From Elusimicrobiota bacterium (lineage in GTDB: Bacteria > Elusimicrobiota > Elusimicrobia > UBA1565 > UBA9628), in contig DAHVNA010000044.1 of the NCBI GenBank assembly GCA_027319565.1, forward strand, positions 1-12,016: 12,016 nt of DNA, given 5' to 3'. Below, piece after piece: positions 1 to 8,994 of this stretch. The translations under genes were made by a program, and so were the position numbers. The notes under the pieces are model-generated. The model ran no database searches. It was not told the DNA's origin and saw only the letters and a program-made list of their open reading frames with translations. Numbering within the stretch: position 1 is the first letter of the stretch; each line of letters opens with the position of its first letter.

Positions 1-15
1 GTCCCTCTTGGCCAT
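1..15 (-). CDS. 5' end of a gene running off the left edge (MAKRD...), product unknown
   Basis: Minus-strand ATG at 15-13, AGGAG Shine-Dalgarno at 25-21 (5-nt spacing), and a consensus promoter upstream. Only 5 codons are visible. Confidence 0.6.
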
Positions 16-26
16 TCGCTCTCCTA

Positions 27-56
27 AATACAGTTGCGATATTACGCAACTGTATT
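27..56. promoter_or_regulatory. Perfect 12-bp inverted repeat, candidate operator
   Basis: AATACAGTTGCG (27-38) - ATATTA - CGCAACTGTATT (45-56). It overlaps the -10 box and predicted start site of the leftward promoter. Confidence 0.7.
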
Positions 57-83
57 ATAAGGGATAGCGCAAGACGTTGTCAA
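54..83 (-). promoter_or_regulatory. sigma70-type promoter for the leftward gene
   Basis: Minus strand TTGACA (83-78), 18-bp spacer, TATAAT (59-54); both hexamers are perfect consensus. Confidence 0.8.
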
Positions 84-106
84 ACAGATTGGGCCAAAAA
101 ATCACT

Positions 107-135
107 TTGACTTTCGGCCTGATCTCCGCTATAAT
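107..135 (+). promoter_or_regulatory. sigma70-type promoter of the ars unit
   Basis: TTGACT (107-112), 17-bp spacer, TATAAT (130-135), 16 nt before the arsR ATG. Confidence 0.8.
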
Positions 136-153
136 ATACGCATAAGCATATAT
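134..153. promoter_or_regulatory. Candidate ArsR operator 1 (ATATACG-N6-CATATAT)
   Basis: Imperfect dyad spanning the -10 end to the arsR ATG; the same arms recur at 516-535. Confidence 0.7.
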
Positions 154-499
154 GAAAGCTCCCGCTGACCGGATGTTTAGGGCGTTCGCGGATGAAACGC
201 GGCTGAGGATTCTTAACCTCCTGGCGCGCCGCCGGGAGCTTTGCGTTTGCGATATCCAGAAAATTCTGGGCGTTTCTCAGCCCAAGGTCTCCAGGCACCT
301 CGCATATTTGCGAAGCGCCGGCCTCGTAAACGTTCGCAAAGAGAGATTGTGGAAGCATTACTCTCTGACAAAGGCCGAGAGCGGCTTTCATCGCGGATTA
401 ATTGGATGCCTGCGGGGATGCTTTTCCGAGGTCAAAACTCTGCGACAAGACTTAAAGACGCTCAAAAAAATTCAGTCTCGAAAGGCGACGTGTGACTGA
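152..499 (+). CDS. arsR: ArsR/SmtB-family As(III)-responsive repressor
   Basis: FRAFADETRLRIL, the alpha3 metal-binding motif ELCVCDI, HTH SQPKVSRHLAYLRSAGLV; adjacent to arsC-acr3. Confidence 0.95.
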   Translation: MKAPADRMFRAFADETRLRILNLLARRRELCVCDIQKILGVSQPKVSRHLAYLRSAGLVNVRKERLWKHYSLTKAESGFHRGLIGCLRGCFSEVKTLRQDLKTLKKIQSRKATCD

Positions 500-515
500 T
501 TTTTTTACGCTTTAT

Positions 516-535
516 ATATACGAGAATCCATATAT
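516..535. promoter_or_regulatory. Candidate ArsR operator 2 (ATATACG-N6-CATATAT)
   Basis: Both 7-bp arms are identical to those at 134-153. It overlaps a TATAAT at 533-538 and abuts the GGAG RBS (539-542). Confidence 0.7.
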
Positions 536-547
536 AATGGAGAGAAA

Positions 548-1993
548 ATGAAAAAGGCGTTGTTTGTGTGCGTTGAAAACTCCTGCCGCAGCCAGATGGC
601 GGAAGGATTTGCCCGCAAACTCGGTCAAGGCGTCCTGGAGGTCTTTAGCGCCGGCTCAAGACCGTCCGGACAAGTCAATCTCCGGGCCATCGCCTTTATG
701 AAGGAAAAGGAAATTGATATCGGCGTCCAGGCATCAAAAGGCTTAGGGGATCTTCCCAGGGCCGAGTGGGATTACATCGTGACGATGGGTTGCGGAGACG
801 CCTGCCCCTCTCTTCCGGCCAAAAACCGGCTCGATTGGAACCTGCCCGACCCGAAGAATCTTTCGGATGACGATTTTCGCCATATAAGAGATGAGATCGA
901 ACTTCGCGTCAAGAATTTAATTGACACGGCGAACAATCCGAACGACAAACCCAAAAAACATCTTTCATTTTTAGACCGCTATCTGACGGCGTGGATATTC
1001 GCCGCGATGGCGCTGGGAATCGCTCTTGGATTTTTCGCGCCGGGCATTCCGGCTTTCATCAACCGCTTTCAATCAGGCACGACCAACATCCCCATCGCCA
1101 TCGGTCTTATCCTGATGATGTATCCGCCCTTGGCCAAGGTGCGCTATGAAAATCTCGGCGGGGTCTTTCGCGATAAAAAAGTTCTGGGCCTGTCTCTTCT
1201 CCAAAATTGGGTTATTGGTCCGGCGCTCATGTTTGCGCTCGCTATTATTTTTCTGCGGCGCTATCCCGAATACATGGTCGGCCTTATCCTGATCGGCCTT
1301 GCGCGCTGTATCGCGATGGTGATCGTTTGGAACGAATTGGCGAGCGGAGACGCGGAATACGCGGCCGGCCTCGTCGCCTTTAACAGCGTCTTTCAAGTTC
1401 TCTTCTACAGCGTCTACGCCTGGCTGTTCATCACGAAAGCGCTTCCGCTCTTGGGATTTTCCGGCGCGGCCATTGATATCGGCATGGGACAAATCGCGCG
1501 CAGCGTTTTTATCTACCTCGGCATTCCCTTTCTCGCTGGGATGCTGACTCGGCTCGCCTTGGTCCGGGCAAAAGGAAAGGACTGGTATCATCGGTTTTTT
1601 ATCCCTAAGATCAGTCCGCTGACGCTGATATCCCTTCTCTTTACCATCGTCGTCATGTTTAGCCTGAAAGGAGAGATGATTGTCAAAATTCCGCTCGACG
1701 TTTTGCGAATCGCCCTGCCGCTTCTGATTTATTTCGTCTTGATGTTTTTAATCAGCTTCTGGCTTGGGAAAAAAGCGGGCGCGGACTATTCCAAGGCGGC
1801 GACTCTCTCATTTACGGCCGCCAGCAATAATTTTGAGCTGGCCATCGCGGTCGCGGTGGCGGTATTTGGACTTAACTCGGGACAAGCGTTCGCCGCGGTC
1901 ATTGGGCCCTTGGTCGAGGTTCCGGTTCTCATCGGGCTTGTGAATGTCTCGCTTTTTTTCCAGAGGCGATATTTTAAAGACAAACGGGGATAA
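548..1993 (+). CDS. arsC-acr3: Fused arsenate reductase (LMW-PTP fold, about aa 1-128) and Acr3 arsenite efflux transporter
   Basis: N-terminal [13 protein letters not shown] (CX5R loop), [13 protein letters not shown]; then [44 protein letters not shown] and many hydrophobic helices. One open frame with no Met in the linker. Confidence 0.95.
1912..1982 (+). repeat. Direct repeat copy 1 (3' end of acr3), 71 bp
   Basis: 68/71 identical to 3482-3552; the first 51 bp are identical. Confidence 0.97.
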
Positions 1994-1995
1994 GG

Positions 1996-2039
1996 AGTTC
2001 GCCTAAAAAGGGCGAATTGGGGACTTTTTTTACTTTTTT
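1996..2039 (+). terminator. Possible intrinsic terminator after acr3
   Basis: Stem AGTTCGCCT/GGGCGAATT (two G-U pairs, AAAAA loop). The T-rich run starts 6 nt after the stem, which is not ideal geometry. Confidence 0.45.
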
Positions 2040-3225
2040 AGCGGCGGCTGATTGCCGGCGGATGAGGAATCGAGCGCAAAAATTCTTGAAAGCCGACGGC
2101 CCTGATTTTATCAGCTAGCGGGAAGGACTGCTTTCCAGGAAATATCAGCAACAGCTCGTCGAGATGAAGATCTTGCATCGCGATTTTCATGGAAGGCGTT
2201 AAGCGCGGGGAATCCGTGTATTTGATCTCATATCCGAGGCGGCGGTTGTTTTTGATCAATAATAGGTCCAGCTCGGCTTGATTGTGCGTCGCCCAAAAAT
2301 AAGCTTCCCCAGGACCCGCCTGGCTGGCCCGAATGATCTCTTCGATGGCCCACCCTTCCCAAGAGGCTCCGAGTTTCGGGTGAGACATCACGTCTTTTTC
2401 AGCGCGGCAGCCTATCAGCGAATGAAAAATTCCGGAGTCCCGAAAATAAATTTTGGGCGCCTTGACCTGGCGCTTTTTTAAATTTTCATGCCAGGGCGGG
2501 AGACTCCGCAGCATGAAAGCTCCGCAGAGGATATCGAGATATCGGCGCATGGAATCATCCGAGAGCCCCAGGGATTGGCCAATCTCGGAGGCGTTGAAAG
2601 TTTGTCCGTGATAATGGGCCAGCATCGTCCAAAAGCGGCGCAAGGACGAGGCAGGGACGCGAAATCCAAGGGCTGGAATGTCCCGTTCTAAAAAAGTGGA
2701 GATATAATCTTTCCGCCATTGGGCCGATTCCTCATCTTTGCGGGCTAAAAACGATTTTGGGTAGCCGCCGCGAAGCCAAAGCCGCCTAAGGGCTTTTTCA
2801 GGAACTTCCTCCGCCGTAAAGGGCGAAAGCTCCACAAAACCGATGCGCCCGGCCAAGGACTCCGAACCCTGGCGAATGAGATCTCGCGAGGCGCTCCCCA
2901 AAATAAGAAAGCGCGCCGGAATCGGGCGGCGATCGGAGAGGACGCGCAGGGTCTCAAAAAGATTCGGACGGCGCTGAATTTCATCTATAATGACGACTCC
3001 GCGCAAATTCTCAAGAGCCAACTTAGGCGTCTCAAGCCGAGCGAGATCGGTCTCGTCTTCGAGGTCGAAAAACGCGGAGTTTCGCGCGAGAGGAGAAAGC
3101 TTTAAAAATTGCCGCGCGAGGGTCGTTTTTCCGCATTGGCGCGGCCCTAAAACCGCGACGACGGGGTAAATCCTCGACAGACGGCTGACTTCCGAAAGCG
3201 CGCGCCTTCTCTCTATGAGTTCCAT
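2038..3225 (-). CDS. AAA_14-type ATPase with DUF4143 and C-terminal PD-(D/E)xK-like motif
   Basis: Walker A GPRQCGKTT, Walker B IIDEIQ, LGSAS, ESLAGR, RGGYP, KRQVKAPKIYFRDSG, GASWEG, and ELDLL...GYEIK. Confidence 0.92.
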   Translation of the reverse strand: MELIERRRALSEVSRLSRIYPVVAVLGPRQCGKTTLARQFLKLSPLARNSAFFDLEDETDLARLETPKLALENLRGVVIIDEIQRRPNLFETLRVLSDRRPIPARFLILGSASRDLIRQGSESLAGRIGFVELSPFTAEEVPEKALRRLWLRGGYPKSFLARKDEESAQWRKDYISTFLERDIPALGFRVPASSLRRFWTMLAHYHGQTFNASEIGQSLGLSDDSMRRYLDILCGAFMLRSLPPWHENLKKRQVKAPKIYFRDSGIFHSLIGCRAEKDVMSHPKLGASWEGWAIEEIIRASQAGPGEAYFWATHNQAELDLLLIKNNRRLGYEIKYTDSPRLTPSMKIAMQDLHLDELLLIFPGKQSFPLADKIRAVGFQEFLRSIPHPPAISRR

Positions 3226-3235
3226 GACAGCTGAT

Positions 3236-3265
3236 ATTATACCATGAAAAATACTTATCTGTTAA
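3236..3265 (-). promoter_or_regulatory. sigma70-type promoter with extended -10 for the ATPase gene
   Basis: Minus strand TTAACA (3265-3260), 18-bp spacer, TG-G-TATAAT (-10 at 3241-3236); the ATG is 10 nt downstream with no SD. Confidence 0.7.
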
Positions 3266-3280
3266 GAAATTTTCATGGTA
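3240..3280. promoter_or_regulatory. Inverted repeat over the ATPase promoter, candidate operator
   Basis: TACCATGAAAA (3240-3250) and TTTTCATGGTA (3270-3280), with inner CTTA/TAAG about the same centre (3260). Confidence 0.65.
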
Positions 3281-3424
3281 ATCAGTTTAATATGTCAGCG
3301 CGGCGCCTTGAGAAATTCATGGGACTATATCAACTATCAAGGCAAGCTTGGGGATTCAAGCGGAAATCCATTGAGCGGATCTTATTGTTTCGAGTTCTCC
3401 ATTGAAAACGCCGCAGGATTCTAA
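3275..3424 (+). pseudogene. Remnant of the N-terminal domain of a secreted tail-fibre-like/adhesin-like protein
   Basis: 49-codon frame MVISLICQRGALRNSWDYINYQGKLGDSSGNPLSGSYCFEFSIENAAGF*. The INYQGxLxDxxGxPxxGxYxxxFxI pattern resembles, from my recall, the N-terminus of large secreted fibre-like proteins. Confidence 0.6.
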
Positions 3425-3481
3425 AGTTTTAATGCGCTTTTCGTGGCAAGTGGGGGCAGTCTCCATTTCCCCCATTTCAAA

Positions 3482-3575
3482 GGTCGAGGTTCCGGTTCTC
3501 ATCGGGCTTGTGAATGTCTCGCTTTTTTTCCAAAGACGCTATTTTAAAGACACCGAGAGAGGGAAGTTCAGGTAA
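3482..3575 (+). repeat. Direct repeat copy 2: orphan acr3 3' end (repeat 3482-3552, frame open to TAA 3573-3575)
   Basis: Encodes [23 protein letters not shown] then TERGKFR*, against ...YFKDKRG* in the intact gene. Confidence 0.95.
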
Positions 3576-3591
3576 ACCGGGCGGAATTAAT

Positions 3592-3621
3592 TGGACAGGG
3601 CTCTAGAGAAACTAGTATATT
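3592..3621 (+). promoter_or_regulatory. Candidate promoter of the polyamine operon (leaderless geometry)
   Basis: TGGACA (3592-3597), 18-bp spacer, TATATT (3616-3621), 6 nt before the GTG at 3628. Confidence 0.5.
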
Positions 3622-3627
3622 GGCGAC

Positions 3628-4959
3628 GTGGGGAGCCGCTTAAAAGCCCAAATTGGGGCACATGGAAACACCGCTTTAAAACAAAGGGCAAAATTTGTCT
3701 CTAGCGGCGTTGCCGCCTACAGCTCCATCGTCGTTGACCACGCCCAAAACGCGACCCTCTGGGATAGCGAAGGAAAAAAGTATATCGATTTCGCCGGAGG
3801 AATCGGGGCGCTCAACGTTGGGCACTGCCATCCCAAGGTCGTCTCCGCGCTAAAGCGGCAAGCCGCCAAATTAACTCACACTTCTTTTCACGTCGCCAGT
3901 TATTCAGATTATGCGGCGGTCTGCGAAAAACTCTGCCGGACAATTCCCTCGCCTCTTCCCCAAAAAGCCGCGCTTTTTAACAGCGGAGCGGAAGCCGTTG
4001 AAAACGCCGTCAAGCTCGCTCGTTTTTTTACCCGAAGAAGCGCCGTCATTTCTTTCGGTTTCGCTTTCCACGGGCGCACGCTTTTGTGTTTGACCCTCAA
4101 CGGGCGAGAAAAAGTTTTAAAATCCGGCTTTGGCCCCTTCGCCCCGGAAATTTACCGCGCGCCTTTCCCCTATTCGTATCGCCCCCCCGCAGGCATAAAT
4201 CCAAAGGATTTGACCGAGTATTGCCTGGAAGAGTTAAAACGCTTGTGGCAATCAGAAATACCCGCAAATCAAACCGCCGCTTTAATTGTCGAGCCGGTTC
4301 AGGGCGAAGGCGGCTTTATCGTTCCCACGCCCAAATTTCTCAAGGGCTTAAGAGAACTTTGCGACGCCCACGGAATTGTTTTAATCATCGACGAGGTTCA
4401 AAGCGGGTTTGGGCGCACTGGAAAATTCTGGGCCTTTGAGCATGAGGAAGTCTTGCCGGATTTACTGGTCGTTGGAAAATCCCTCGCCGCCGGAATGCCT
4501 CTTTCTGCGGTCGTTGGCCGCTCCGAAATCATGGACGCTCCCCCCGCCGGAGCCATTGGCGGCACCTATGGCGGAAATCCTCTTGCCTGCGCTGCGGCGC
4601 TAGCGGTCTTTGAAATTTTTGAAAAAGAAAATATCCTCAACAAAGCGGGATCGGTCGCAAAAACCGTTCAGGCTCGATTTAACTCCTTTCAGAAAAAATT
4701 TTCCATTATCGGAGAATCTCGGGGCCTTGGCGCCATGCGCGCATTGGAACTGGTCTTGGACAAAAAAACCAAGGCTCCCTTGCCGGTCAATCAAGTTAAA
4801 CAAATTATCGCCGACTGCGAGAAAAAGGGCCTACTCCTCATCAAGGCCGGAATTTTCGACAATGTTTTGCGAACGCTAATGCCGCTGACCATTGAAGACG
4901 CAGACTTAAACGAAGGGCTCGACATTCTGGAAGAGACTTTAGAGGATTTCTGCTTATGA
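3628..4959 (+). CDS. gabT: Class III PLP aminotransferase, 4-aminobutyrate/5-aminovalerate transaminase-like
   Basis: [66 protein letters not shown] (PLP Lys), GGTYGGNP. The GTG start is uncertain. Confidence 0.85.
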   Translation: MGSRLKAQIGAHGNTALKQRAKFVSSGVAAYSSIVVDHAQNATLWDSEGKKYIDFAGGIGALNVGHCHPKVVSALKRQAAKLTHTSFHVASYSDYAAVCEKLCRTIPSPLPQKAALFNSGAEAVENAVKLARFFTRRSAVISFGFAFHGRTLLCLTLNGREKVLKSGFGPFAPEIYRAPFPYSYRPPAGINPKDLTEYCLEELKRLWQSEIPANQTAALIVEPVQGEGGFIVPTPKFLKGLRELCDAHGIVLIIDEVQSGFGRTGKFWAFEHEEVLPDLLVVGKSLAAGMPLSAVVGRSEIMDAPPAGAIGGTYGGNPLACAAALAVFEIFEKENILNKAGSVAKTVQARFNSFQKKFSIIGESRGLGAMRALELVLDKKTKAPLPVNQVKQIIADCEKKGLLLIKAGIFDNVLRTLMPLTIEDADLNEGLDILEETLEDFCL

Positions 4960-6131
4960 AAATCGCGGTCTTAGGCGGCTTTGGAGCGATGGCGGAAGGC
5001 GCGCTTTATTATTTGGCTCAAAACCCCAAGGTTAAATCCATTTTAGCCGCCGATATCGATCTAACGAGAGCGAATTCTCTCTTAAAATCCATCCCGCAAT
5101 CAAAAAAAATCAAGCCCGTTAAGCTTGACATCTCAAATTTAAACGCCGCTTCTCAGGCGCTGAAAGGTTCCGACTGCCTTCTCAACTGTTCCTGGTATGA
5201 ATTTAATCTAAGCGCCATGGATTTAAGCCTGGCTTTAAACGCCCACTATATCGATCTAGGCGGGCTTTATCATATGACGCTCAAACAACTGAAAAAAAAT
5301 GAAGAATTTAAACGCGCCAAACGCTTGGCCGTTTTAGGAATGGGCTCGGCCCCGGGGCTTTCCAATTTGATGGCATCTCACATCGCCAAGGATTTTGATT
5401 CCATCGACACTCTCGGAATTTATGACGCCAGCTTCGACCCGGCTTTAGATAAAAATAAACTCATTGTCCCTTTCTCAATCAAGACGCTTTTGGACGAACA
5501 TGGCCAAAAAGCGCCGATTCTTTTAAATGGAAAGCCGGTCAGCGTTTCCCCTCATTCTCTCGCGGAAGAAATTGATTTTAAAAAGCCCCTGGGCCGAATG
5601 AAAGTGGGAACGGTTATACATTCCGAAACCGCGACCTTGCCCCATTTTCTCAAATCCAAGAAAATCAAAAATTTGTTTTTTAAGATCGGATATCCCCCCC
5701 CTCTCAAAACCCAGTTGGAGATATTGGAAGCCGCCGGATTTTCAAGCGACCGGCCGATTTATCTTAACGGACAAGCGATTTCTCCCAAGTCCTTTTTAGC
5801 CGCGATGGCCCAGCAAAACGCTCGAAATCTATCGCCCACAAACGGGCGCGATTTTGAAATTTTAAGGGTGAAAGCCTCGGGAATCTCAAAAGGGAAATAT
5901 CTGGAAAAAATTCTCGACTGCGAGATGAGCGGAAACGGCAAAATTTCCGCCGGGACACTGGGAGTGGGAGTTCCCGCCGCCATCGCGGCTTTGATGATGA
6001 TTGAGGGAAAAACTTTGATCTCAAGCGGAGCGGCGGCGCCGGAAGAGGCTTTAAATCCTATCTCTGTTATTAAGGAACTTGAGCGTCTTCAAACTTTTAA
6101 TTTCGTCGAAACCGTGACAAAACCCATTTAA
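4956..6131 (+). CDS. Saccharopine dehydrogenase-family NAD(P)-dependent oxidoreductase; substrate unknown
   Basis: N-terminal Rossmann KIAVLGGFGAMA and AADID, HYIDLGG, GMGSAPGLSN, HSETATLP, G...PE. ATGA overlap with the gabT stop. Confidence 0.88.
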   Translation: MKIAVLGGFGAMAEGALYYLAQNPKVKSILAADIDLTRANSLLKSIPQSKKIKPVKLDISNLNAASQALKGSDCLLNCSWYEFNLSAMDLSLALNAHYIDLGGLYHMTLKQLKKNEEFKRAKRLAVLGMGSAPGLSNLMASHIAKDFDSIDTLGIYDASFDPALDKNKLIVPFSIKTLLDEHGQKAPILLNGKPVSVSPHSLAEEIDFKKPLGRMKVGTVIHSETATLPHFLKSKKIKNLFFKIGYPPPLKTQLEILEAAGFSSDRPIYLNGQAISPKSFLAAMAQQNARNLSPTNGRDFEILRVKASGISKGKYLEKILDCEMSGNGKISAGTLGVGVPAAIAALMMIEGKTLISSGAAAPEEALNPISVIKELERLQTFNFVETVTKPI

Positions 6132-6141
6132 GGAACCAGCT

Positions 6142-7548
6142 ATGAAAAAAACCGCGCAAGAGATACTCAAGGAAACGCAAAAAACTCTCGATCTTGTGGC
6201 CAAACCCGAGCTAAACGAGGAAGAAAAAAACTGGGTCACCGATGCCACCGCCAATTACTACTCCAGCCACGTCAACCCCGGCATTCTTGAATACCGGAAA
6301 TCAGTCTCGACGGAATATATCTCGGTTGAATGGGCCGACAGCGCCAACGGTTTTACCGATATTAAAGGAAGGCACTATTTGGACCTTCTCGGGGGATATG
6401 GAATTTTCAACGTCGGACATCGCCACCCTAAAGTCGTGGAAGCGGTCTCAAATCAGCTCAAAAGGCAAGCCCTTCACTCGCAAGAGCTTCTTGAGCCTTT
6501 TCGCGCGATTTTAGCGAAACTCATCCATGATATTACGCCCGGCGATCTTCAGTTTAGCTTCTTTGGAAATTCCGGCGCGGAAGCGGTTGAAGGAGCGATG
6601 AAACTCGCCATGCTTCACACCGGCCGCAAATCCTTTGTCGCCGCGACCTCGGCTTTTCACGGAAAAACATTGGGGGCTTTATCGGCGACGGCCAAAGCGA
6701 AATTTCGCCAGCCTTTCTTGCCTATATTGCCGGACTGCTACCATGTTCCCTATGGCGACGCCGATTATATCGAGTCCATCGTCCGCTCGGCCGACGAAGT
6801 CGGAAACGACATCGCGGGCGTCATTTTAGAGCCAATCCAAGGCGAAGGCGGAATCAATGTTCCTCCGGATGATTATTTCCCAAGGGTTCGGGAAATTTGC
6901 GACAGATACGGGGCGCTTCTAATCGCCGACGAAGTCCAGACCGGAATGGGCCGCACCGGGAAAATGTTTTGCGTGGACCACTGGGATGTCGTGCCCGACA
7001 TCATGTGCCTGGGAAAAGCGATGGGCGGAGGAGTCATGCCCATCGGCGCTTTTGTCTCCAACAAAACGATTTGGGAACAACTTTTTCCCGAGCCCTGGCT
7101 TCATTCAACCACTTTCGGCGGCAATCCCCTGGCCTGCGTCGCCGCCATCGCCAATATTCACGTTTTACTGGAAGAAAAGCTTCCCGAGCGCGCGGAAAAA
7201 ATGGGAAATGAGATAATGGCGAAACTCAAAGCCTTGCGCCGAAGGTTTCCGAAACTCTGCGCGGACGTTCGCGGCAAGGGGCTCATGATCGGCCTTGAGT
7301 TTCCCTCGGACGCCTTGGGTTATGAAATCGCCAAGGGTCTTTTCGATCACGGGGTTTTGGTCGCGGGAACTCTTTTTTCGGCCAAAACCATCCGCATCGA
7401 GCCGCCGCTGACCATCACCCAGCAGGAAGTAAATTCCGCTTTAGATACCATCGAGAAAGTGTTTAAAGAGGTCAATGCCCGCCATTTTGAGTCAAAAAAG
7501 CCGGCGGGAATCAAAAAACATGAAAAAGAGCCAAACACCCCCAGCTAA
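6142..7548 (+). CDS. patA: Putrescine aminotransferase (diamine:2-oxoacid transaminase)
   Basis: PatA/YgjG-type motifs [73 protein letters not shown] upstream. Confidence 0.92.
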
Positions 7549-8968
7549 TCGCCGCGCCATTATTTCACCCTCAAACGAAAAAACAATCGCTCATGTTCAA
7601 GATGCGGGCCAAGAAGAGGTCCATCTCGCCGTTTCCTCCGCCAAAAAGGCCTTCCCCCTTTGGGCCTTAAAATCGCCGGCTGAACGCGCAAGCCTTCTTC
7701 TAAACTGGGCCAACCTCATCGAAAAAAACTTACCCCGCCTCGCGCTTTTAGAATCTCAAAACACCGGCAAACCCCTGAAATTATCCCAAGACGGAGACCT
7801 GCCCTTTGCCGTCGATAATCTGCGCTTTTTCGCTTCCGCCGCGCGCGTTTTGGAGGCGCCGGCTTCATCTGAGTATTCGACCGGATATCTCTCTTTTTTA
7901 AAGAGGGATCCCATCGGCCCCGTAGCGTTGATTACGCCGTGGAATTATCCGCTGATGATGGCGGTTTGGAAAATGGCTCCGGCTTTAGCCGCGGGAAATT
8001 CCTGCGTCATCAAACCCTCGGAATTGACCCCCTTGACCACGCTTGAAATCGCGAAACTGGCCCTCAAAGCGGGTTTCCCAGAAGGCGTCATCAATGTCGT
8101 TTTAGGCGGAGAAGAAACCGGAAAACTCCTGACCTCCCACCCTGAAATTAAAATGATTTCTTTTACCGGAGACACCGCAACGGGGCGAAAAATCATGTCC
8201 CAGGCCTCGACCACGGTTAAACGCCTTCACTTGGAGCTGGGCGGAAAAGCCCCCTTCATCGTCTTTGAAGACGCTTCTCTTTCCGCCGCCGTCTTAGGGG
8301 CCGTCGTCGGCTCTTTTGTCAACGCCGGACAAGATTGCACGGCGGCGACCCGTCTTTACATCCACAAAAAAGTTTTTGACCGCTTTACCGCTGATTTTCT
8401 CAAGGAGACTAAAAAAATAAAACTCGGGCTTTTTGACGATCCCGAAACCGACATGGGCCCGCTGATTTCCGAAGATCAGCGCGCGCGCGTTGAGGGTTTT
8501 TTGAGCAGAGCCGAGAGTATCGAGATTCTCTTCGGCGGGCATCGCCCCAAAAATATAAAGAAGGGATTTTTCTTTGAGCCGACCGTCGTTGTCAAAGCCG
8601 GACAAAATTCGGAACTGGTCCAAAAAGAAATATTTGGCCCTGTCGTTTGTCTTTTGCCGTTTAAAGACGAAGCCGAGGCGGTTCAACTCGCCAACGACGT
8701 TCCCTACGGTCTTGCGGCTTCGGTTTGGACCAAGGACGTCCACAAGGCTTTGAGAGTCTCTTCCGCGCTTAGATTCGGCACGGTTTGGATCAATGACCAT
8801 CTGCCGCTGACTTCGGAAACCCCACACGGCGGCTTTAATCAATCGGGCTTTGGAAAGGATTTGTCTCGCCACGCGCTTGAAGAATACACCGCGCTCAAAC
8901 ACGTCATGGCGGATCTCTCCGGAGACGCGCGCAAACCCTGGCATTACACCGCCTTCGGCAAAAAATAA
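7520..8968 (+). CDS. patD: Gamma-aminobutyraldehyde dehydrogenase-like ALDH
   Basis: PWNYPLMMAVWK, SFTGDTATG, ELGGKAP (catalytic Glu), NAGQDCTAATR (catalytic Cys), PHGG..QSGFGKDLS, KHVM. Start placed at ATG 7520 for the shorter overlap; 7475 is possible. Confidence 0.85.
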   Translation: MKKSQTPPANRRAIISPSNEKTIAHVQDAGQEEVHLAVSSAKKAFPLWALKSPAERASLLLNWANLIEKNLPRLALLESQNTGKPLKLSQDGDLPFAVDNLRFFASAARVLEAPASSEYSTGYLSFLKRDPIGPVALITPWNYPLMMAVWKMAPALAAGNSCVIKPSELTPLTTLEIAKLALKAGFPEGVINVVLGGEETGKLLTSHPEIKMISFTGDTATGRKIMSQASTTVKRLHLELGGKAPFIVFEDASLSAAVLGAVVGSFVNAGQDCTAATRLYIHKKVFDRFTADFLKETKKIKLGLFDDPETDMGPLISEDQRARVEGFLSRAESIEILFGGHRPKNIKKGFFFEPTVVVKAGQNSELVQKEIFGPVVCLLPFKDEAEAVQLANDVPYGLAASVWTKDVHKALRVSSALRFGTVWINDHLPLTSETPHGGFNQSGFGKDLSRHALEEYTALKHVMADLSGDARKPWHYTAFGKK

Positions 8969-8994
8969 GGGCGACTCAACGCGATTTTTGGGCC

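What the first reader, a model, noticed from the sequence alone, without database searches (positions are those of the whole stretch)
1912..3575. Integrase-less 1,570-bp cassette inserted in the acr3 3' end, with a synonymous-only target duplication
Seen: 1912-1982 recurs at 3482-3552 with 68/71 identity. All three mismatches are silent third positions (CAG/CAA, AGG/AGA, CGA/CGC), and copy 2 keeps the frame to its own stop. Weak similarity continues beyond (GAGTTCGCCTAAAAAGGGCGAATT vs AAGTTCAGGTAAACCGGGCGGAATT). No recombinase lies between the copies. Known: elements integrating in coding genes carry a replacement 3' end, leaving attL/attR repeats. Inference: both tails were selected as Acr3 coding sequence, so acr3 is an attachment site or recombination hotspot for a small cargo cassette. 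Excision would swap the C-terminus from KRG to TERGKFR, remove the candidate terminator and put the polyamine operon about 50 bp behind acr3.
Basis: partly seen in the sequence, partly recalled or inferred. Interest (0 to 1): 0.75.

Follow-up and report, generated by a model that had tools for sequence, protein, structure and literature searches.

The report
Defence-candidate gene inserted behind arsenite pump
A single, self-regulated candidate anti-phage gene has been inserted at the end of an arsenite-pump gene, leaving a spare copy of that gene's end on its far side; the insertion is real, but it looks like a known recombination scar that recurs at unrelated genes rather than a dedicated attachment site.

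Summary
The repeat is real (68/71 nt, first 51 identical, three silent differences). It is not an assembly chimera. A congener (G005) has the same filled site on a 103-kb contig, and another (G003) has the empty site, with acr3 64 nt before gabT. The cargo is one intact AAA_14-DUF4143 ATPase-nuclease (PADLOC candidate PDC-S01) with its own promoter and a conserved palindrome. Homology between the copies runs about 107 nt, past the stop; the tails are as diverged as congeners are from each other. acr3 does not behave as an attachment site: there is no recombinase, other cargo at this spot in congeners has no acr3 repeat, and other genes in this genome carry the same kind of duplicated end. Best reading (0.6): recombinase-free insertion with long target duplication, made by host recombination with DNA of a sister lineage and kept alike by later recombination. 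The 8.9-kb block has itself moved between species. That copy 2's tail was ever coding is only weakly supported here (p about 0.05; a 1-nt deletion follows the core). Excision and circles could not be tested. The scan has noted this layout at 17 other loci. New variant of a known kind.

The parts
548..1993 (+). Host gene: ArsC-Acr3 fusion (arsenate reductase domain plus ACR3 arsenite efflux transporter), intact, ending FKDKRG-stop
   Evidence: Pfam LMWPc + SBF; TIGR00832 acr3 455 bits, over cut-off
1912..1982 (+). Copy 1 of the repeat core (last 23 codons before KRG); 1912-1962 identical to copy 2
1983..2018 (+). Diverged continuation of copy 1: stop at 1991-1993 in the same register as congeners, then a weak hairpin 1996-2018
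2014..2025 (+). Half-site of the genus REP-like palindrome at the left junction; partly overlaps homology to the gabT -35 region
   Evidence: PWM half-site score 14.8; 64 equal or better sites in the genome
2038..3225 (-). Cargo: 395-aa AAA_14 + DUF4143 ATPase-nuclease (PADLOC candidate PDC-S01), convergent with acr3; Walker A/B and PD-(D/E)xK-type residues intact
   Evidence: motif names recalled
3236..3280 (-). Cargo promoter (sigma70-like, 11/12 match) overlapped by a 41-nt spaced palindrome at 3240-3280, conserved upstream of homologues; probable self-operator
   Evidence: z -6.7; found in 97 of 110 loci, 95 with exactly 21-nt spacing
3447..3469 (.). Degenerate copy of the REP-like palindrome that flanks Y1_Tnp (RAYT-type) genes in congeners; the motif ends 12 nt before copy 2
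   Evidence: PWM score 12.6; 39 sites score 12 or more in the genome, against about 1 per Mb of random sequence
3482..3552 (+). Copy 2 of the repeat core (orphan acr3 3' end)
   Evidence: identical in G005
3553..3589 (+). Diverged continuation of copy 2: 1-nt deletion, frame ends TERGKFR at 3575 (TERENFG in G005, stop at the same codon)
3592..3621 (+). gabT promoter-like site, conserved in G001-G005
3628..4959 (+). gabT, first gene of the polyamine/GABA catabolic operon; follows acr3 directly in G003
   Evidence: TIGR00700 over cut-off
113..8989 (.). Block (arsR to aldehyde dehydrogenase, cassette included) shared at 97% with G005, whose other loci are 81-92% identical and whose flanks differ: horizontal transfer

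Best explanation
The segment is a self-contained single-gene module (promoter + palindromic operator + ATPase-nuclease) that entered the acr3 3' end by host homologous recombination, without a site-specific recombinase. SHOWN: a 1.46-kb unique insert (2019-3481) sits between two versions of the last ~107 nt of the acr3 region; the ancestral state is acr3 directly followed by gabT; the filled allele has moved between species inside a larger block. INFERRED: incoming DNA from a sister lineage carried a diverged acr3 end next to the cargo. A single crossover, or a one-sided homologous junction with copying of target, left one acr3 end on each side and kept the gene intact. Later recombination between the copies, or with incoming acr3 alleles, keeps the 5' 51 nt identical while the tails stay as diverged as congeners. 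The silent differences are then mostly allelic differences between acr3 genes that were each once functional, not a sign of an att site. Precise loss by recombination across the core is possible but unshown. The cargo's role (anti-phage defence or selfish nuclease) is untested.
For: Empty site in G003. Filled site in G005 within a 97% block, in a genome 81-92% alike at other loci. Sharp gradient: 17 identical codons where G003 differs at 30% of codons (0.697^17 = 0.002), then 3 of 21 nt and about 40% of tail positions different. Over 1982-2003 copy 1 differs from G003:C140 at 4 of 22 nt but from copy 2 at 11 of 21, which fits two source lineages. The same layout occurs at unrelated genes of this genome. 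C30 (76 nt, 50 identical) is empty in 4 of 5 congeners searched, with no match in G002; C15 and C78 are similar. At C22 the native tail (G005) is the downstream copy and the upstream tail is a replacement. There the two copies within G003 differ at 3 of 154 nt, against 10 of 154 between the G000 and G003 orphans, which is homogenisation. Across 12 hand-picked coding repeats, 81 of 128 changed codons are silent, against 35-38% expected if the orphan simply decayed (p<1e-8; 43 of 78 and p about 0.001 without the two largest). Repeat lengths of 34-520 nt and unrelated targets around homologues. DprA and ComEC are present in 5 of 5 genomes. Experimental precedent for single-crossover gene-end duplications of 109-950 bp: PMC3240628 (passages).
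Against: No donor was found: 1 of 109 homologue loci has an ars gene nearby, at 32% identity, and the closest relatives (69-73% DNA identity) sit at other genes. No empty-site strain of the G000 species was found, and none of 131 stored proteins ends in copy 2's tail. In G003 the native tail is in copy 1's register, unlike C22, so which copy is native is unresolved. Tight flanking repeats occur at only 8 of 92 homologue loci. That is above ordinary G000 genes (7 of 713, p=7e-5) but not above neighbouring ORFs in the same loci (3 of 89, p=0.21). Only 1 of 7 DUF4143 matches in G000 has a long repeat. The C30 cargo sits in G003 at another site with no repeat. Competence genes are near-universal (10-11 of 14 controls). 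The repeats for the silent-change test were chosen, and their frames assigned, by me.
Confidence: 0.6

Rival explanations
1. True duplication of one host allele at a DNA break, possibly made by the cargo nuclease itself (the selfish-nuclease view of long target duplication). Copy 2 has been non-coding since then and has decayed; gene conversion alone keeps the core identical.
For: Copy 2 has a 1-nt deletion and has lost the ancestral stop. No protein with its tail was found. Copies 1 and 2 share a short post-stop motif that G003 lacks. At C30 both copies share G000-specific alleles. Conversion is shown at C22. The cargo has intact nuclease-type residues.
Against: Silent bias: 3 of 3 here (p about 0.05) and 81 of 128 pooled. 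G005 keeps the stop at the same codon (TAA to TGA) despite 5 changes in 17 nt. Cargoes without a recognised nuclease (a TPR protein at C22; an unannotated ORF at C15) show the same layout.
Confidence: 0.17
2. REP/RAYT-assisted insertion: a HUH transposase nicks at the genus REP palindrome, and the single-stranded ends seed the junctions, with host recombination finishing the event.
For: A degenerate REP lies just before copy 2 and a half-site at the left junction. The same REP flanks Y1_Tnp genes in G001 and G003, five copies each. A REP sits at the C30 target in 4 of 4 empty sites.
Against: No REP at the junctions of 10 other repeat-flanked segments in G000, at 0 of 29 phylum homologue loci, or at 78 of 80 GTDB loci. 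No Y1_Tnp was found in G000, G004 or G005 (assemblies 92-97% complete). REPs are common intergenic elements, and the association was noticed after the fact.
Confidence: 0.1
3. Remnant of an integrase-driven element, or an integrase-less element mobilised in trans, with attL/attR in the acr3 3' end.
For: The gene end is restored and duplicated, as for elements that integrate in coding genes (established knowledge, recalled: e14 in icd; SGI1 in trmE, search listing). Seven tyrosine-recombinase matches exist elsewhere in G000.
Against: No recombinase or remnant in the insert. Three of the seven matches are near tRNA genes and two are of XerC/D length; none of the seven loci shares more than 12 nt with the core or right flank. 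There is no family-wide use of acr3. Targets and repeat lengths vary freely. None of the 15 papers listed (of 199 matching) in the acr3/attB search mentions acr3.
Confidence: 0.08
4. Assembly chimera of two strains.
For: The genome is a metagenome bin; congener bin G003 does hold two versions of the adjacent region, 94.5% alike.
Against: The same structure is present in G005 on a 102.7-kb contig with 2-3% differences. In run X4 the unitig 1933-3511 has depth 20.8 and the next, 3503-3990, has 21.3 (same study as the possible source). Run X5, from another study, has a contig covering 1981-3439.
Confidence: 0.02

Closest known systems
Insertion with long target duplication of restriction-modification genes (Furuta, Abe and Kobayashi 2010, PMC2853133; passages and sections 13 and 18 read)
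   Same: Small insert, no mobility gene, unique direct repeat over 30 bp (25-423 bp in their Table 3) with imperfect identity, an empty site in a relative, sometimes overlapping a gene's 3' end, mostly in naturally competent species.
   Different: The cargo is a lone ATPase-nuclease with no methyltransferase; cargoes without a recognised nuclease do the same in this genome; the copies show an identical core plus lineage-level diverged tails.
Single-crossover duplication and homology-facilitated illegitimate recombination (PMC3240628, passages; PMC5361080 on Vibrio T6SS effector displacement, passages)
   Same: Host recombination anchored at one homologous end; variable-length gene-end duplications (56 of 60 clones in E. 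coli; 109-950 bp in the 14 sequenced); orphan 3' ends left downstream.
   Different: Those are laboratory plasmids or toxin-immunity arrays. The identical stretch here is only 51 nt, and the donor molecule is unknown.
PADLOC candidate PDC-S01 (AAA_14 + DUF4143)
   Same: Best model E 1.6e-84. Described as an ATPase fused to a PD-(D/E)XK domain and the fourth most common defence candidate, with validation pending for most PDCs (PMC12988326, passages).
   Different: The passages read say nothing on mobility, flanking duplications or an operator.
Integrative elements that replace the 3' end of a coding gene (e14/icd, recalled; SGI1/trmE, abstract start)
   Same: The host gene stays intact and its 3' end is duplicated.
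   Different: No integrase, no fixed target gene, no fixed repeat length.
REP/RAYT (TnpA-REP) systems (search listing only)
   Same: A REP-like palindrome tied to Y1_Tnp genes in congeners touches the junctions.
   Different: Cargo mobilisation with long duplications is not in the listings seen, and the link fails at most other loci.

Membership tests
Insertion with long target duplication (Furuta 2010 criteria) | Target duplication longer than 30 bp | tested here: met
   71-nt core, about 107 nt with tails
Insertion with long target duplication (Furuta 2010 criteria) | Insert under 20 kb with no other mobile-element gene | tested here: met
   1,463 nt unique, one ATPase gene
Insertion with long target duplication (Furuta 2010 criteria) | Empty site in a related genome; repeat not a multi-copy family | tested here: met
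   G003:C74, a congener at 86-89%, not the same species; two copies only in G000
Insertion with long target duplication (Furuta 2010 criteria) | Insert holds both restriction and modification genes | tested here: not met
   No methyltransferase. It works like this class but is not an R-M member.
Integrase-driven element with attL/attR in a coding gene | Cognate site-specific recombinase in or next to the element | tested here: not met
Integrase-driven element with attL/attR in a coding gene | Same target and crossover reused by different cargo in relatives | tested here: not met
   G001/G002 cargo has no acr3 repeat; G003:C140 breaks at a different point
Integrase-driven element with attL/attR in a coding gene | Excision to a circle by a recombinase acting in trans | not testable with these tools
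   Only contigs were available; the 51-nt identical core collapses in them
PDC-S01 / AAA_14-DUF4143 | Domain architecture and profile match | tested here: met
PDC-S01 / AAA_14-DUF4143 | Anti-phage activity | not testable with these tools
   Needs an experiment
REP/RAYT-mobilised unit | REPs at element ends and a RAYT in the genome | tested here: inconclusive
   One degenerate REP and one half-site here; no RAYT found in G000; not general

The most novel reading that the evidence does not exclude
AAA_14-DUF4143 genes are a self-mobilising class of single-gene elements. The protein binds its own conserved upstream palindrome and makes a break, or works with REP nicking, and host recombination then writes the gene into the end of whatever gene flanks it, duplicating 40-500 nt of target. 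The repeats act as a reusable landing pad through which the gene spreads between coexisting species. This would be a recombinase-free mobility cycle for one of the most common uncharacterised prokaryotic gene families.
Probability: 0.15. Interest if true: 0.75.

Novelty: new variant of a known kind. Interest (0 to 1): 0.38.

Why it matters
How defence-type genes enter core operons without a recombinase is an open question: Furuta 2010 states there is no experimental evidence for the release and re-infection steps it proposes. This locus is a fairly clean natural example, with filled and empty congeners, evidence that the copies are homogenised, and a cross-species transfer. It also argues that such repeats should not be annotated as attL/attR by default. 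For arsenic biology it matters little: Acr3 is intact, and the swap would change only a variable C-terminal tail.

Tried and rejected
Two exact-pattern scans of JGI metagenome contigs (repeat core; copy 2 tail) found 0 matches; the tool may omit near genomes. No RNA holder was listed. The read lay used contigs only, so excision and circles are untested. Its joint 2001-to-3590 in X4 first looked like an empty site, but its letters match the rearranged G003:C140 variant and only 48 nt lie on the short side, so I do not count it. Rfam found nothing credible in 1-4500. The check for duplicated acr3 ends in stored loci was uninformative because they hold only about 1.5 kb downstream, less than the 1,570 spacing. 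A loose BLAST count of repeats spanning the ATPase (22 of 109) was no higher than one-sided repeats (26 of 109), so I used the stricter test (17 of 109 loci dropped for short flanks). Automatic frame choice was wrong for several loci; only one search is used. The 57-aa ORF 3402-3575 running through copy 2 has no support as a gene. REP as the general driver was rejected. No structure or complex prediction was run. Literature searches: no relevant hits; 0 papers. PMC12707154 passages were not informative. No supplements were consulted; those of PMC2853133 hold further examples I did not see.
Full report
Setting. The window is the whole of contig C50 of a 2.03-Mb bin, 91.65% complete. Runs that hold it are mine-drainage, tailings and sediment metagenomes. 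Earlier scan notes call the genome Elusimicrobiota, and the best named homologue of the cargo is from Elusimicrobia; I did not test the taxonomy. Gene order is arsR, an ArsC-Acr3 fusion (548-1993), a convergent AAA_14-DUF4143 gene (2038-3225, minus), then gabT, a saccharopine-dehydrogenase-like gene, putrescine aminotransferase and aminobutyraldehyde dehydrogenase.

Observation. The 71-nt repeat, its three silent mismatches and the open frame of copy 2 are as described. Identity is graded: 51 identical nt, then 3 differences in 21 nt, then a tail out to 2018/3589 that is still homologous (7 of 5,000 shuffles) but differs at roughly 40% of positions. The duplicated target is therefore about 107 nt and the unique insert 1,463 nt.

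Real insertion, not a chimera. G005 has both copies and the cargo on a 102.7-kb contig, 97.2% identical over window 113-8989. G003:C74 has acr3 followed 64 nt later by gabT, and aligns to both copies. In run X4 (same study as the possible source) the cassette contig has depth 20.8 and the next contig 21.3. Run X5, from another study, covers 1981-3439 with 30 differences. Contigs cannot show excision.

The block moves. At the other loci compared, the long matches between G005 and G000 are 81-92% identical, mostly 87-90%. The genes flanking G005's block map to G000 contigs C56 and C67, while G003 shares G000's downstream order. Four-fold sites differ at 3-5% between G000 and G005 in five genes of the block and at 16% in the last, against 26-30% between G000 and G003. 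So G005 is an independent assembly of the filled allele but not an independent insertion: the ars-cassette-polyamine block was transferred.

Is acr3 an attachment site? G001 and G002 carry about 3.3-3.5 kb of other genes between acr3 and gabT, and G004 has a 385-nt spacer; none has an acr3 repeat. A protein search of 41 genomes found the 3' fragment only in G000 and G005. A DNA search of 78 family genomes matched 29 and missed three congeners; it gave second hits in G000, G005, G003 and G304, the last at a contig end. The G003 hit (C140, a second version 94.5% like C74) is an orphan acr3 tail starting near 1946, joined to the gabT promoter and inverted against the region after 8986. The spot is thus a recurrent breakpoint, but with different ends. 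Seven tyrosine-recombinase matches lie elsewhere, three near tRNA genes, and none shares more than 12 nt with the core.

The layout is general. G000 has other repeat-flanked inserts. C30 duplicates the last 76 nt of a DUF3108 gene around an AAA_16 gene. It is empty in G001, G003, G004 and G005, with no match in G002, and G003 has the same cargo elsewhere without a repeat. C15 and C78 have empty sites in congeners. C22 duplicates about 177 nt of an ABC-ATPase gene end (LolD-like, label recalled) around a TPR gene; it is filled in G000 and G003 and empty in G005. There the native tail is the downstream copy and the upstream gene wears a replacement tail. Each orphan resembles its own genome's functional copy (3 of 154 differences within G003, against 10 of 154 between orphans), which shows that such pairs get homogenised. 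Among homologues of the cargo, 8 of 92 loci with adequate flanks have a tight repeat, against 7 of 713 G000 ORFs (p=7e-5) and 3 of 89 neighbouring ORFs (p=0.21). The closest protein homologue (73%, G263) sits convergent to another gene whose end is duplicated over 73 nt. The scan has noted the same layout for this family in at least 17 other genomes; those notes are not independent evidence.

Were both tails coding? For: 3 of 3 silent changes (p about 0.05 against one coding and one decaying copy). G005's copy 2 tail differs from G000's at 5 of 17 nt yet keeps the stop codon position; all 5 differences fall in the 37-nt tail rather than the core (p=0.004). Copy 1 is closer to the C140 tail (4 of 22) than to copy 2 (11 of 21). 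Pooled over 12 hand-picked coding repeats, 81 of 128 changed codons are silent, against 35-38% expected. Against: copy 2 has a 1-nt deletion relative to copy 1 and both G003 versions, and none of 131 stored proteins ends in its tail. The inference is plausible, and well supported for the class, but unproven for this locus.

The cargo. It matches PDC-S01 (E 1.6e-84), with intact Walker and PD-(D/E)xK-type residues (motif names recalled). PMC12988326 (passages) calls PDC-S01 the fourth most common defence candidate and says validation is pending for most such candidates. Its promoter is overlapped by a palindrome (z -6.7). An inverted repeat scoring 10 or more lies upstream of 63 of 110 loci (this one included) against 0 of 220 shuffles. 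A spaced motif was found in 97 of 110, 95 of them with exactly 21-nt spacing, and the two arms vary together (relatedness among sequences not corrected). A self-operator is the likely reading; the scan noted this before. The module thus brings its own control and needs no host context.

REP lead. The palindrome that flanks Y1_Tnp genes in G001 and G003 has a degenerate copy just before copy 2 and a half-site at the left junction, and it sits at the C30 target in four congeners. It is absent from the junctions of 10 other G000 segments, from 29 of 29 phylum loci and from 78 of 80 GTDB loci, and no Y1_Tnp was found in G000. I keep it as a minority rival.

Mechanism and class. The anatomy meets the structural criteria of insertion with long target duplication, except that the cargo is not an R-M pair (PMC2853133; passages and sections 13 and 18). 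Single crossovers produce such variable gene-end duplications experimentally (PMC3240628; passages), and one-sided homology has been proposed for orphan 3' ends in Vibrio (PMC5361080; passages). I give host recombination with sister-lineage DNA plus later homogenisation 0.6, break-induced true duplication 0.17, REP/RAYT help 0.10, an integrase element 0.08 and a chimera 0.02. I found no paper describing this layout for AAA_14-DUF4143 genes in searches, in a library that lacks most subscription journals. Excision would restore the G003-like arrangement, in which gabT keeps its own promoter, so a regulatory switch is unlikely.

Verdict. Real, well anchored by filled and empty congeners, a new variant of a known but mechanistically unexplained kind. 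Interest 0.38.

Noticed in passing
window 3240-3280; L056-L164 upstream regions: Conserved spaced palindrome over the promoter of AAA_14-DUF4143 genes (fixed 21-nt spacing in 95 of 110 loci, arms co-varying). A second copy lies at G000:C45:6501, near a weak, partial DUF4143 match.
   Followed up: partly
window 113-8989 vs L035 (G005:C43): An 8.9-kb ars + cassette + polyamine block is 97% identical between species that are otherwise mostly 87-90% alike, with different flanks. Differences cluster in short tracts (2308-2511, 3558-3574, 8250-8989), suggesting patchwork recombination.
   Followed up: partly
L225 (G003:C140:1-210): Orphan acr3 tail plus gabT promoter inverted against the gene after the polyamine operon; bin G003 holds two versions of this region, 94.5% alike.
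   Followed up: partly
window 548-1993: ArsC and Acr3 are fused in G000 and G005 but are separate, abutting genes in G001-G004.
   Followed up: no
window 3592-3628 and 3225-3265: The predicted -10 boxes of gabT and of the ATPase lie 6-10 nt from their start codons, suggesting leaderless transcripts.
   Followed up: no
G000:C26:9976-11807 (L171): A Fic (SoFic-like) gene lies between exact 80-nt repeats that duplicate the promoter and 5' half of tRNA-Met, next to a 574-aa ORF that looks like a serine recombinase (recalled, not scanned).
   Followed up: no
L173 (G003:C16): Three ATPase genes of this general kind are clustered with a small ORF after an xseB-like gene (label recalled), one being the C30 cargo of G000 at a different site.
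   Followed up: partly
P0014: An Acr3 with an unrelated N-terminus but a C-terminal 152 aa 99% identical to the window's; a recombinant or a misassembly.
   Followed up: no
L038, L039 (G001, G002 between acr3 and gabT): Tandem paralogues of secreted-looking proteins with 190-280-nt repeats; in G001 they are flanked by a second palindromic repeat family similar to the one at G000:C89.
   Followed up: no
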